Assembly (NCBI GenBank): GCA_964514565.1
Contig: CAZERA010000002.1
Coordinates: 62,001-126,000 of the forward strand
Reading direction: 5' to 3'
Length of the DNA stretch: 64,000 nucleotides
Source of the DNA: an uncultured Candidatus Peribacteria bacterium
GTDB taxonomy: Bacteria; Patescibacteriota; Gracilibacteria; RBG-16-42-10
Shown here: positions 51,001 to 54,000 of the stretch, piece after piece
How positions within the stretch are numbered: the first letter of the stretch is position 1
How the letters are laid out: each line of letters starts with the position of its first letter
Program-made: the position numbers

Positions 51001-54000
51001 TTATCTTGAGTGGAGACGTAACAATTAGCGGACAAGTCGATGGAGATGTAATCATGGGGGGAGGAACACTAGATATCCAAGATAAAGCCGTTGTTGGCAA
51101 GAACATCCGAGCAGCTAGTGGCGATGTCCATGTGGACGGCCAAGTAAAAGGATCAGTACAAGTCTTTACGGGCACATTCACCAGTAGTGGCAAAATCAGT
51201 GGCAATATCTATGCTGATGTAGGCACCTTCTATTTGAATGGCGTAGTCAATGGATCTATCAAAGTAGATGCCAGAAATATTCATTTAGACGAGAAAGCTA
51301 TTATCCAAGGCGACTTCAAATACACTAGCCTAGAAGCATTACGCCAAGAGCCAACCGCAAAAGTACAAGGACAGTTGATCAATTTGCCGAGCCAAACAGA
51401 AACTCCTTGGTATCAGAATGCTTATTTCTGGGGAGAACAGTTGGCTAATAGTATTTCATACTGGTTATTGGCACTATTACTGATTTGTTTTTTCCCTAAG
51501 CTGACAGCGCGATATGCCGACACTTTTGGCAAGAATATCCTTTTCAATTTCCTGATGGGTATAGTGAGCATCGGCAGTCTAGCGCTAGCATGTATAGTAT
51601 TGGCAGTTACTATTATTGGCATTCCTCTTTCACTTCTCACCCTCATCATCACTGGCATCAGCCTTTGGTTGGCACCGCTAGGACTAGTTCTATGGTTCAC
51701 CAAAAATATCGCAAAGCAAAATTGGTTAGAATCAAAAAGACCATGGCTCACAGCATTTGTACTATTGGCGAGTGTATTTGTCCTGATGGTGTTACAAGCA
51801 ATCCCATTACTCGGCTCTCTAGTCCATCTCCTCACTATTACCTGTGGATTAGGAGCACTAATGATCAGCAAATGGCAATTTTACAAGGAAAGCAAAACCA
51901 CTCTATAGTAGCCCCTTGAAATATTCTTATGGCAAAAATAAGTAATCTAGGTGTATTAGTAGCATCTCTAGCTTTGACGGCAGTAGGTGTAAATGGTTGG
52001 AAGCACGAAAGGCATGAAGCTGAAATACATGAACATCTGAGCTCAGAACAACACTGGCATCTTTACAATAGTGCACCAAGTCGACAAGCGCTTCGATCGC
52101 TTCTATCAAGAAGCCACAATAGTTCAGCCAAGGCTTACGAATTGCTTAGAATAAACCGAGCTATAAATATCTGTCACGAAAATTATCAAGCACATACAAG
52201 AACATTTATAACTATGTGTGTTCAAAATCCAACATGCAATCGGTCCCTGAGAGTGCACAATCCCAATGGCGCGGTTACTTTATCTGCTACTTACGGCTTA
52301 GATGGACTAGAAGCCAATAGCTTTATCTCAAACTATGCCACACTAAGAATACGAGATATCGTAGATAGTCGAGATGATAACGAACTAACAGAACAAAACA
52401 CTAGGAGTATAGGATATTTGGTAGACAGCCAATTAACCGCAAGTATCACTACCAGCAGAATGGCACTAGAGGCCTGTCAAAGTAAATTAGATTTAGTAGA
52501 CGCTTCAATTGCAACACAATCACACAGATAACCACAAAAACCCTCTGCCCTCTGCCCTCTTACCCCTGACCTACTTTTCTCGTCTTTACATTTCTCATCT
52601 CTCATTGTAGATTGTCGACGCTCTAAACAAGTAATTTATGGCGAAGAAAACGAATCGCGTTTGGGTGACTATGGAATACAAATTCGAAAGACCAGATGGT
52701 ACACGTGGTAGCGAATGTATTTATGTGACAAGCAAAAACAAGAAAACTACTACTGACAAATTGGAACTCAAAAAGTTCTCAAAGGTCATGCACAAACATG
52801 TTAAATTCGTTGAGAAAAAGGGTAAGTAATCAGACGTTGAGATCAGAAAGAAATTAAAAAGGAGCGAAATCGCTCCTTTTTTTGTACCCACAAGTTATTA
52901 ATTGGAATTCGAACGCTTGATTGGTAGTGATTGTCTAATGATTTGATCTAGCTGCTCAAGTGTAACTTCACTGAGTTTATTCCACTCTGCTTCAATCTTG
53001 GCCTTGGCATCATAATAAGCTTGTCTACTTTCAGCTTTCATATGTGGAAGCAAGCGCATCGCCTTTGCCCAATGCACATGGAACAAACCAATATCAAAGT
53101 GCCCGTCTTTAACTAAATTTTTCTTTAAAAATTCTTTGGGTGGCACCATGAGATTGGCGGCCAATTTAAACCAGCTCATAATCTTGAGCACATAGAAACT
53201 AGCATCAATTTCCCACCAGAAAAAACCCTGCCTGCTACTAGCTGGATAATAGTGATGGTTGTTGTGCCATCCTTCACCACAAGTAATCAAAGCTAAAATA
53301 AATGAATTACGACTACTATCCCTAGTCACAAAACGACGACGACCAAACACATGAGCAAGCGAGTTGATCGTAAATGTACCATGATAAAGCAGTACAGTAG
53401 AGAGCAAAAATCCGCCAACCAACATACTCCAGCCACCAAAGGCTAAAGATATCAGTCCCAGTATTGCTGGGGGAATCAAGTAATAACGATCCAAGAAACG
53501 CAGCTCGGGGTATTGCGCAAAGTCCCGAATCAAATCAAGCCGAGGCTTAGCGTACTTCTGACAGACAATCCATCCCATATGACTCCACCAAAAACCACGA
53601 ATTGGTGAATGAATATCATCGATCTGATCAGAATGGTGGTGATGATGACGATGATAAGAAGCCCACCAAAGCGGTCCTTTTTGTGCAGCTGAAGCTCCAC
53701 CAAAAGCCATCACAAACTGCATCCATCGAGGCAGCTGATAACTTCTATGAGCAAAGTATCGATGATACCCAGCTGTAATAAAAAACATGCGAACGAAGTA
53801 CAAAGCCACACAGACAACAATATCAGCTAGGCTCACACCAGTTATCAATAAAAGTAATGGTGTCAGATGCATCAACCAAAACAAAGCAGAGCGTTTCCAA
53901 TCAATCACCTCATCATTAGCATTCGTCCCCATAATCAAAAATTCAAAAGCAGATCGATCCTACAGCAACAATGATGAACAAACTATTGACGAGATGTTTT

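What a model noticed while it worked through the whole genome (the two positions that open the first line are those of the whole stretch)
52898..53932. Lipid desaturation without lipid synthesis: two membrane fatty-acid desaturases in a genome that lacks fatty-acid and ph [...]
The assembly has no gene for fatty-acid synthesis, acyl activation or glycerol-phosphate acylation, in line with lipid scavenging by CPR bacteria, yet it encodes two integral-membrane, di-iron, O2-dependent desaturases with all three histidine boxes: g00661 (C2:114898-115932; 33% id to cyanobacterial acyl-lipid delta-9 desaturase DesC) and g00674 (C2:128149-129114; 27% id to animal FADS6). I read this as desaturation of acyl chains on lipids taken from the host, an aerobic trait. 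A small FAD/NAD(P)H reductase (g00641) and ferredoxins (g00218, g00926) are candidate electron donors; the cytochrome b5 g00439 has a lipoprotein signal peptide and is probably not the donor.
Evidence so far: Call 173 (pfam.tsv): no hit to ketoacyl-synt, PP-binding, FabA/FabZ, enoyl reductase, Acyltransferase, G3P_acyltransf, PlsX, AMP-binding, CTP_transf_1; only CDP-OH_P_transf (g00109) and PAP2. FA_desaturase on g00661, g00674. swissprot.tsv: DesC 33% (E 4e-45), FADS6 27% (E 2e-28). Call 174: His boxes HRYFAH/HRHHH/HNNHH and HEARH/HVLIHH/HTEHH; g00439 N-terminus MKKLALLVTFASLLTAC. relatives.tsv (floors): FA_desaturase in 142/896 Gracilibacteria, 753/10,944 Patescibacteria.
(Added by a program. 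Inside this text positions count along the whole contig: contig position 62,001 is position 1 of the stretch shown here. "Call 12" and the like, gene names such as g00115 and contig names such as C1 are that model's own, and its searches are not shown. The text may have been shortened before it was handed on; [...] marks where a part breaks off. The agent that wrote the report below was given it as the finding of a first reader that could run no searches.)

Follow-up and report, generated by a model that had tools for sequence, protein, structure and literature searches.

The report
Lipid desaturases in a lipid-scavenging bacterium
A tiny symbiotic bacterium with no recognisable genes for making fatty acids or membrane lipids still keeps two intact oxygen-dependent lipid desaturases, which suggests that it chemically edits lipids taken from other cells.

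Summary
Window 52898-53932 (minus strand) encodes an intact 344-aa SCD1/DesC-type delta-9 membrane desaturase (Des1). All di-iron ligands and the delta-9 kink triad are conserved, and the model's fold matches SCD1. A second FA_desaturase gene (Des2, FADS6-like) lies outside the window at C2:128149-129114.

Six-frame family searches of the 1.12-Mb, 92.66%-complete genome found none of these: ketoacyl synthase, ACP, PlsX, PlsY, PlsC-type acyltransferase, CdsA, AMP-binding acyl ligase, FakB. They were also not found in the congeners searched for them.

Both genes sit in conserved core-gene synteny and are under purifying selection.

FA_desaturase genes occur in 82 of 401 sampled genomes of the class and 19 of 201 of the phylum. 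63 of the 82 have no ketoacyl-synthase match at all.

The best reading (about 0.6) is in-membrane desaturation of scavenged lipids. Electrons would come from an FNR-like reductase and a 69-aa single-cluster ferredoxin; this is inferred. The exported cytochrome b5 is an unlikely donor.

The enzyme is ordinary, at 55-65% identity to many bacterial homologues. The context is unusual, and seven searches of the held literature found no discussion of it. Substrate, donor and host origin of the lipids are untested.

The parts
52898..53932 (-). Des1: 344-aa SCD1/DesC-type delta-9 membrane fatty-acid desaturase
   Evidence: Pfam FA_desaturase at 68 bits. PDB SCD1 at E 5e-26, with all His and Asn ligands aligned. 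AF2 pLDDT 93.3. Foldseek to SCD1: TM 0.73-0.77 normalised by target. Syntenic orthologues at 76-83% identity in G001, G002 and G006. pN 0.13-0.16 against pS 0.75-0.79 versus those three.
52856..52881 (-). Terminator-like hairpin (11-bp stem followed by a T run) just after the Des1 stop, between Des1 and the convergent L33 gene
   Evidence: Consensus scan: 6 terminator-like sites found against 2.3 expected from shuffles. This is a pattern match only.
36104..36805 (-). 233-aa FNR-like flavoprotein (FAD_binding_6 + NAD_binding_1); candidate NAD(P)H-dependent reductase for the desaturases (inferred)
   Evidence: It is not linked to Des1. Its neighbours are housekeeping genes by my reading of the ORF translations, with no family scan run on them. 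The family is present in 356 of 401 class genomes, so co-occurrence carries no information.

Best explanation
Des1 is a functional, O2-dependent, di-iron delta-9 desaturase in the cytoplasmic membrane of an Abawacabacteria-like CPR bacterium. The organism has no recognisable way to make fatty acids, activate them, or acylate glycerol-3-phosphate. The only acyl chains available to the enzyme are therefore those already esterified in membrane lipids taken from other cells. On this reading Des1 works as an acyl-lipid desaturase, inserting a cis double bond at C9 of saturated chains in place and so adjusting the fluidity of a borrowed membrane. Des2, a FADS6-like enzyme with an AlkB/desaturase-type fold, would make a second modification of unknown position. 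Electrons most likely flow from NAD(P)H to an FNR-like flavoprotein, then to the 69-aa single-cluster 4Fe-4S ferredoxin, then to the di-iron centre on the cytoplasmic face.

Shown here: gene integrity, fold, conserved ligands, the missing lipid-synthesis families, synteny, purifying selection and distribution.

Inferred: the substrate class, the double-bond position, the electron donor chain and the host origin of the lipids.
For: Enzyme integrity. All nine His (57, 62, 94, 97, 98, 194, 223, 226, 227) and N190 align to SCD1's metal ligands (which residues are ligands is recalled). Eight of the nine His are invariant and H94 is kept in 47 of 48 homologues; N190 is kept in 44 of 48. The Q84/W90/T186 triad matches the Gln147/Trp153/Thr261 triad that kinks the SCD1 tunnel at C9-C10. 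The fold matches SCD1. K/R-rich catalytic loops argue for a cytoplasmic active site.

No route to acyl-CoA, acyl-ACP or new glycerolipid. Searches cover the own genome. In relatives: ketoacyl synthase in 0 of 7 family genomes, ACP in 0 of 9, AMP-binding in 0 of 5 in the family, PlsY in 0 of 9, CdsA in 0 of 5 in the family. The PlsC type occurs in only 1 of 7 family genomes, and that genome (G005) has no desaturase.

The cell does use diacylglycerol lipids. Two Lgt genes are present.

The genes are native and maintained. Des1 lies between the L33 gene, tRNA-Trp, a class-A PBP gene and nusA on a 132-kb contig, and the gene order is kept in G001 and G002. Des2 lies beside rnpA-yidD-yidC-jag-mraY (gene names from my reading of the translations), and this order is kept in G001. 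Synonymous sites are saturated while pN is 0.13-0.30.

The pattern recurs. FA_desaturase is found in 82 of 401 class genomes, many copies carrying in-frame TGA as expected for the recoded lineages. Of those 82, 63 have no ketoacyl-synthase match, 15 have only short matches and 4 have matches over more than 140 of the 252 model positions. In the phylum sample it is 19 of 201.

A relative of a Bacillus desaturase exists in the class. One class genome carries a close relative of the model named Delta(5) desaturase DesA, at 338 bits. That Bacillus Des enzymes act on membrane phospholipids is recalled.

Donor parts exist. An FNR-like reductase and a Fer4_13 ferredoxin are encoded.

Oxygen is plausible in the habitat. 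Near-identical short contigs occur in 4 runs from 4 studies labelled wastewater, activated sludge and freshwater.
Against: There is no experimental or direct computational evidence on the substrate. Sources name the homologues acyl-CoA or stearoyl-CoA desaturase, and the only solved relatives are acyl-CoA enzymes.

Des1 and 11 other members of its clade score 75-109 bits against the DesA-family equivalog, whose cut-off is 400. The clade therefore has no characterised anchor.

No donor is linked by gene order or co-occurrence. The FNR-like family is near-universal in the class (356 of 401). I did not test the ferredoxin in relatives. No Fer2 was found, and a narrow N-terminal pattern search of ORFs listed no flavodoxin candidate.

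No heme-copper oxidase and no Fe/Mn SOD was found, so life with O2 is not otherwise evident in the genome.

The absence of known families does not exclude an unrecognised lipid pathway. The genome is 92.66% complete. How a CPR cell takes up lipids is unknown.
Confidence: 0.6

Rival explanations
1. The lineage makes or re-acylates its own lipids by enzymes that no current family model recognises, and the desaturases act on self-made acyl chains, as in ordinary bacteria.
For: The absences rest on known Pfam models only. The origin of CPR lipids is unresolved; the 2026 review says only that phospholipid synthesis genes are 'generally incomplete' (passages). Lgt shows that diacylglycerol lipids are used.
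Against: Eight independent families are missing together from the own genome. Each family that was also searched in relatives was not found in the congeners searched, while every one of them is found in 6-14 of 14 control genomes. A wholly novel FAS plus acyltransferase set in a 1.1-Mb genome is a large assumption.
Confidence: 0.12
2. Des1 is an acyl-CoA (or other thioester) desaturase acting on imported free fatty acids before they are used.
For: Homologues are named acyl-CoA desaturase. The closest solved structures are stearoyl-CoA desaturases.
Against: There is no AMP-binding acyl ligase, no ACP, no FakB and no acyltransferase to use the product. The names are generic pipeline names, not tests.
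Confidence: 0.08
3. The two enzymes modify something other than glycerolipid acyl chains (for example lipoprotein or glycolipid anchors, sphingoid or isoprenoid chains), or they serve mainly to consume O2.
For: The FA_desaturase fold also holds hydroxylases and ketolases. Des2 gives a weak hit to an arginine hydroxylase model (23.3 bits). Its best structural matches are a chloroplast-complex chain (Z 21.7) and AlkB (Z 12.5), not SCD1 (Z 7.5). No SOD or oxidase was found.
Against: For Des1 the delta-9 kink triad and the SCD1-like fold argue for a long saturated acyl chain. Des2 remains open.
Confidence: 0.12
4. The desaturase genes are contamination, mis-binned DNA or decaying relics.
For: Des1's nearest neighbours outside CPR are Actinomycetota, Acidobacteriota and Myxococcota at 45-61% identity, as expected after horizontal transfer or contamination.
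Against: The genes sit on a 132-kb contig among core genes, with gene order kept in congeners. Short contigs from four independent runs cover both the gene and its flanks. Class homologues carry in-frame TGA. Purifying selection is evident and all ligands are intact.
Confidence: 0.03

Closest known systems
Mammalian stearoyl-CoA desaturase 1 (PDB 4YMK, 4ZYO, 6WF2)
   Same: Same four-helix mushroom fold (TM 0.73-0.77 normalised by target). The same nine His plus Asn align, and so does the Gln/Trp/Thr kink triad.
   Different: Only 25-27% identity. SCD1 uses acyl-CoA and cytosolic tail-anchored cytochrome b5. Here there is no acyl-CoA route and the only b5 is an exported lipoprotein. Des1 also has a 70-residue C-terminal helical extension.
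Cyanobacterial DesC and Pseudomonas DesA (delta-9 acyl-lipid / phospholipid desaturases; recalled)
   Same: The proposed mode of action is the same: desaturation of chains already esterified in membrane lipids. In cyanobacteria the donor is ferredoxin.
   Different: Those organisms synthesise the lipids themselves. Des1 does not reach the DesA-family equivalog cut-off (80 bits against 400).
Bacillus subtilis Des (delta-5 phospholipid desaturase fed by ferredoxin or flavodoxins; recalled)
   Same: It edits existing phospholipids in place for fluidity and has a small single-cluster ferredoxin as donor. The same ferredoxin type is encoded here. A close relative of the Bacillus-type model occurs in another genome of the class (338 bits).
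   Different: Different subfamily and double-bond position. No DesK/DesR-like regulator was seen beside Des1.
Mycobacterium DesA3 with Rv3230c, and Pseudomonas DesB with DesC (desaturase plus FNR-like/2Fe-2S reductase; recalled)
   Same: An FNR-like flavoprotein acts as the reductase.
   Different: Those reductases carry their own 2Fe-2S domain and are gene neighbours of the desaturase. Here no Fer2 domain exists and nothing is linked.

Membership tests
Membrane fatty-acid desaturase superfamily (Pfam PF00487) | Profile match above the curated cut-off | tested here: met
   Des1 scores 68 bits and Des2 74.7 bits against a cut-off of 29.7.
Membrane fatty-acid desaturase superfamily (Pfam PF00487) | Three histidine boxes (HX3-4H, HX2-3HH, HX2HH) | tested here: met
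   Des1: HRYFAH, HRHHH, HNNHH. Des2: HEARH, HVLIHH, HTEHH. In homologue alignments eight of Des1's nine His are invariant and H94 is kept in 47 of 48; in Des2 H79, H83, H116, H120, H121, H262, H265 and H266 are invariant.
SCD1/DesC-type delta-9 desaturases | Nine His plus one Asn positioned as in the SCD1 di-iron site | tested here: met
   The HMMER alignment to 4YMK and 4ZYO aligns all of them. Which SCD1 residues are ligands is recalled from the structure papers.
SCD1/DesC-type delta-9 desaturases | Gln-Trp-Thr triad that kinks the substrate tunnel at C9-C10 | tested here: met
   Q84 and W90 are invariant in 48 of 48 homologues, and T186 is kept in 43 of 48. The triad is named in passages of PMC8533217.
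SCD1/DesC-type delta-9 desaturases | SCD1 fold | tested here: met
   AF2 pLDDT 93.3. Foldseek E 3e-13 to 7e-13, TM by target 0.73-0.77, rmsd 3.2-3.6 A.
SCD1/DesC-type delta-9 desaturases | Delta-9 regiospecificity shown by product analysis | not testable with these tools
   Needs expression and GC-MS.
Acyl-lipid (as opposed to acyl-CoA) desaturases | Acts on acyl chains esterified in glycerolipids | not testable with these tools
   Only indirect: no acyl ligase, ACP, FakB or acyltransferase was found.
NCBIfam NF049918, DesA family fatty acid desaturase (equivalog) | Score at or above the curated cut-off of 400 bits | tested here: not met
   Des1 scores 80 bits. Eleven other members of the tree score 75-109 bits.
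FADS6-like desaturases (Des2) | Sequence or feature likeness to FADS6 clusters | tested here: inconclusive
   An Atlas feature hit at 0.95 goes to a 'fatty acid desaturase 6-like' cluster. There is no PDB sequence match. The fold is nearest to 8XKS chain K (Z 21.7) and AlkB (Z 12.5). FADS6 itself has no established activity (recalled).
Eukaryote-type SCD / cytochrome b5 / b5-reductase chain | Cytochrome b5 on the same (cytoplasmic) side as the di-iron centre | tested here: not met
   The b5 has a lipobox signal and Lgt is present. The Des1 catalytic loops are K/R-rich, hence cytoplasmic. 18 of 20 class b5 proteins carry a signal or an anchor.

The most novel reading that the evidence does not exclude
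Lipid-auxotrophic Patescibacteria do not merely steal membranes but edit them. A toolkit of O2-dependent desaturases (delta-9, Bacillus-type delta-5, and forms with a QxxHH third box), possibly acquired more than once by horizontal transfer, lets about a fifth of the species of this class, and about a tenth of the phylum, re-tune the fluidity of host-derived lipids. This would make dissolved oxygen a niche determinant for organisms otherwise read as fermenters. It would also give CPR membranes an unsaturation signature distinct from that of their hosts.
Probability: 0.4. Interest if true: 0.7.

Novelty: new member of a known kind. Interest (0 to 1): 0.55.

Why it matters
How CPR bacteria obtain and maintain a membrane without lipid synthesis is an open question. 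An intact, selected and recurrent desaturase in genomes that lack every known step of fatty-acid and phospholipid synthesis gives a concrete, testable handle on it. The enzymes can be expressed and assayed. Their products would be lipid markers for separating symbiont from host in lipidomics. Their O2 requirement bears on the debate about oxic adaptation of CPR. If the enzymes instead use self-made lipids, that would point to an unrecognised lipid pathway, which would matter even more.

Tried and rejected
Expression. No RNA holder was listed for the gene, so nothing can be said about expression.

Des2 by the finding's offset. This failed because the window coordinates were wrong. Des2 is outside the window.

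Cytochrome b5 as donor. Rejected on topology and on lack of association (16 shared genomes against 11.7 expected, p 0.15, with kinship not controlled).

Co-occurrence of an FNR-like reductase with desaturases. This is uninformative, because the family is in 356 of 401 genomes. Within the family the 512-529-aa membrane form is seen in G001-G004 and G006 (which have desaturases). G005 and G007 (which have none) each gave a single match, on a 236-aa open frame. That contrast is one genus against two. The fusion is a very large conserved family (6593 proteins at E <= 1e-20 among 8000 scored), so it is not specific to desaturase carriers.

Functional anchor through NCBIfam. None of 12 clade members reaches the DesA equivalog cut-off.

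Conserved neighbour of Des1. The upstream ORF 53983-54903 has no Pfam family and no homologue in the relatives' loci.

One clade for the class's close delta-9 genes. The AU test gives lnL 74.7 lower and p 0.037. I named the group after seeing the tree, so this is only a weak rejection. Several transfers are suggested, not shown.

Other steps. Reading the SCD1 structure paper for its CoA-contact residues failed because the paper is not held. No complex prediction was run, because transient carrier-enzyme pairs rarely pass and a failure says nothing.

Literature. Seven searches found no discussion of fatty-acid desaturases in CPR/Patescibacteria:
- 2 papers;
- 48 papers, 20 listed;
- 632 papers, 30 listed, none of the listed papers containing 'desaturase';
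- 8 papers;
- 603 papers, 15 listed;
- 7 papers;
- 11 papers, 10 listed.
Passages were read in PMC9948471 (carotenoid desaturase only), 10.1101/724781 and PMC8612252 (phytoene desaturase). Subscription journals and supplements were not seen.
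Full report
WHAT IS THERE

The window is contig C2:62001-126000 of a 1,117,677-base, 7-contig assembly that is 92.66% complete and 0.48% contaminated. 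The offset in the finding is wrong: subtract 62000, not 112110.

At 52898-53932 on the minus strand lies an ORF of 344 codons, open under the standard code. It matches Pfam FA_desaturase at 68 bits against a cut-off of 29.7. It also matches the two solved mammalian stearoyl-CoA desaturases at E 5e-26.

The second gene, Des2, is real: 321 aa, FA_desaturase at 74.7 bits. It lies at C2:128149-129114, beyond the window's end. A six-frame search finds exactly these two FA_desaturase places in the genome.

ANATOMY OF DES1

- The His boxes are HRYFAH (57-62), HRHHH (94-98) and HNNHH (223-227), with N190 and H194 in the fourth helix.
- All of these align with the metal ligands of SCD1 (the identity of the ligands is recalled).
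- Eight of the nine His are invariant in 48 homologues; H94 is kept in 47 of 48 and N190 in 44 of 48.
- Q84, W90 and T186 align with the Gln147/Trp153/Thr261 triad that shapes the kink of the SCD1 tunnel at C9-C10. They are kept in 48, 48 and 43 of 48 homologues.
- An AlphaFold2 model is confident (pLDDT 93.3, pTM 0.87). Its only strong PDB matches are the SCD1 entries: E about 5e-13, TM 0.73-0.77 by target, rmsd 3.2-3.6 A.
- Residues 275-344 form a long C-terminal helix that SCD1 lacks.
- The loops carrying the His boxes are rich in Lys and Arg (13 and 22 K/R), so the active site should face the cytoplasm.
- A strong hairpin followed by a T run lies just after the stop codon.

Des1 is thus an intact delta-9-type desaturase and, as an enzyme, ordinary. 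The nearest database proteins are 76-90% identical (the same genus and family). After those come hundreds at 52-67% identity from many phyla. 1063 cluster representatives score E <= 1e-30.

WHO CARRIES IT

The Des1 orthologue of relative G004 is identical to a protein that NCBI names as from Candidatus Abawacabacteria. Des2 and the membrane reductase also have Abawacabacteria-named relatives. The genome is therefore an Abawacabacteria-like member of the class that GTDB calls Gracilibacteria (passages), and it uses the standard code.

THE MISSING LIPID GENES

Six-frame family searches of the own genome gave no match for any of these:

- ketoacyl synthase
- PlsC-type acyltransferase
- ACP
- PlsY
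- PlsX
- AMP-binding ligases
- DegV/FakB
- CdsA

Each of these families was found in 6 to 14 of the 14 control genomes.

The same holds in relatives:

- Ketoacyl synthase: 0 of 7 genomes of the family.
- ACP: 0 of 9 genomes searched, G000 included.
- PlsY: 0 of 9, G000 included.
- AMP-binding: 0 of 5 in the family.
- CdsA: 0 of 5 in the family.
- PlsC type: only in G005, a family member without a desaturase.

The four genomes of the genus are 85-98% complete, and each family searched in them gave no match. A gap in one assembly is therefore not the explanation. The cell nevertheless uses diacylglycerol lipids, since two Lgt genes are present.

NATIVE AND MAINTAINED

Des1 lies between the ribosomal protein L33 gene, tRNA-Trp, a class-A penicillin-binding protein gene and nusA. 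This order is kept in G001 and G002. Des2 lies beside rnpA-yidD-yidC-jag-mraY on one side and an ASCH-domain gene and an Nramp transporter on the other (the first five gene names are from my reading of the translations). This order is kept in G001, and the ASCH neighbour is also kept in G004.

Against the orthologues, non-synonymous differences are 0.13-0.30 per site while synonymous sites are saturated at 0.67-0.83. Where it can be computed, dN/dS is 0.04-0.17.

Short low-depth contigs from four runs of four studies match the gene and its flanks, many with few differences.

DISTRIBUTION

- FA_desaturase genes occur in 82 of 401 sampled genomes of the class (54 of 229 genera). That includes 3 of 3 congeners and 5 of 7 family members.
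- Many copies in other lineages carry in-frame TGA, as expected for genes native to the recoded lineages.
- Of the 82 carriers, 63 have no ketoacyl-synthase match. 15 have only short matches (about 40-80 model positions, which I read as thiolase-fold relatives without testing). 4 have matches over more than 140 of the 252 positions: G192, G270, G325 and G374.
- In a sample of the phylum the family is in 19 of 201 genomes at E <= 1e-8.
- Delta-9-type relatives of Des1 are in 32 of the 77 carriers searched.
- Other types exist in the class. One is a close relative of the Bacillus-type model named Delta(5) desaturase DesA (338 bits). Others have a QxxHH third box.

PHYLOGENY

The tree holds 119 rows, was built with the quick method, and is rooted at the midpoint only.

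- Des1 groups with G001, G002 and G006 (support 99). It then groups with the G004/Abawacabacteria set in a 9-row clade (support 99).
- That clade sits inside a 31-row clade (support 98) with sequences named Uhrbacteria, 'Patescibacteria group', Terriglobia, Nitrospira and many Actinomycetota.
- Delta-9 genes of other families of the class fall elsewhere in the tree.
- Forcing the 13 closer class sequences into one clade costs 74.7 log-likelihood units, with p-AU 0.037. I named that group after seeing the tree, so several independent acquisitions are suggested, not shown.

ELECTRON SUPPLY

- The single cytochrome b5 begins with a lipobox signal. Of 20 b5 proteins of the class that I read, 10 have lipobox signals, 8 have an N-terminal membrane anchor, and 2 have neither (3 further loci gave no ORF with the heme motif).
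- b5 and desaturase share 16 genomes where 11.7 are expected (p 0.15, kinship not controlled). b5 is therefore an unlikely donor.
- The genome has no Fer2 domain.
- It does have a 69-aa single-cluster ferredoxin at C5:73039-73248 (Fer4_13, 44.8 bits).
- It has a 233-aa FNR-like flavoprotein in the window at 36104-36805.
- It has a 505-aa fusion of an RnfD-like membrane domain with an FNR-like module at C1:30284-31807.
- None of these is linked to a desaturase. The FNR-like family is in 356 of 401 class genomes, so profiles cannot choose between them.

The chain NAD(P)H, then flavoprotein, then ferredoxin, then di-iron centre is my inference, by analogy with Bacillus and cyanobacteria (recalled).

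OXYGEN

No heme-copper oxidase and no Fe/Mn superoxide dismutase was found. The runs that hold near-identical DNA are labelled wastewater, activated sludge and freshwater, and these are habitats where O2 is available.

DES2

Des2 has only 26 relatives in the word-limited search. They are named Abawacabacteria, Elusimicrobiota and, in one case, Woesearchaeota. It has no PDB sequence match and feature likeness to FADS6-like clusters. Its confident model (pLDDT 90.8) is closest to chain K of a chloroplast motor complex (Z 21.7) and to AlkB (Z 12.5), not to SCD1 (Z 7.5). It is an intact di-iron membrane oxygenase of the desaturase/hydroxylase fold. Its reaction is unknown.

VERDICT

The most economical reading is that these cells desaturate acyl chains of lipids they did not make. 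That reading rests on absences and on family chemistry, not on any assay. The enzyme is a new member of a known kind. The physiological setting was not found in seven searches of the held literature and can be tested directly.

Noticed in passing
G000:C1:500577-500957 (outside the window); loci L012-L014 and L127-L145: Cytochrome b5 genes are in 57 of 401 class genomes but in only 1 of 14 control genomes. Of 20 that I read, 10 have a lipobox signal and 8 have an N-terminal membrane anchor. An exported b5 family in CPR bacteria has no obvious role.
   Followed up: partly
G000:C1:30284-31807 (locus L015:1435-2952, minus strand): A 505-aa fusion of an RnfD/NqrB-like membrane domain with an FAD_binding_6 + NAD_binding_1 module. 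It belongs to a very large, length-conserved family: 6593 proteins at E <= 1e-20 among 8000 scored, about 50% identity over the full length, with source names including Abawacabacteria and Levybacteria. It is a membrane NAD(P)H oxidoreductase in organisms usually described as lacking quinones (recalled). Its acceptor is unknown.
   Followed up: partly
L146-L150 (genomes G045, G078, G076, G340, G023): Other genomes of the class carry other desaturase types. One is a close relative of the Bacillus-type model named Delta(5) desaturase DesA (338 bits). Others have a QxxHH third box, as in front-end desaturases. Some genomes hold two or three desaturase genes.
   Followed up: partly
window 60830-61951 (+): A family-2 glycosyltransferase that also matches Glyco_transf_21 (49.5 bits). 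That family includes lipid glucosyltransferases (recalled), so this gene may decorate scavenged lipids.
   Followed up: no
L001:9111-11122 (C2:129111-131122, outside the window): Des2 is followed by a convergent ASCH-domain gene that overlaps its stop codon, and then by an Nramp metal transporter. The order is kept in G001, and the ASCH neighbour is also kept in G004. An iron importer beside a di-iron enzyme may be chance.
   Followed up: partly
protein P0281: A Des2 relative at 54% identity is named by NCBI as from a Candidatus Woesearchaeota archaeon, another small-genome symbiont group. This may reflect transfer or a binning error.
   Followed up: no
G000:C3:6769-8319 (locus L152:1270-2820): A 516-aa fusion of a DAO-type FAD oxidoreductase with a C-terminal Rieske 2Fe-2S domain. 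It is one of the few iron-sulfur redox proteins found in this genome.
   Followed up: no
window 53983-54903 (-): A 306-aa ORF lies directly upstream of Des1 on the same strand, with a near-consensus promoter-like site at 54996-54968 (11 of 12 positions). It has no Pfam family and no homologue at the same place in relatives.
   Followed up: partly
G000:C1:162845-163585 and C1:364347-365099: There are two Lgt (prolipoprotein diacylglyceryl transferase) paralogues in the own genome, and two or three matches in every relative searched.
   Followed up: no
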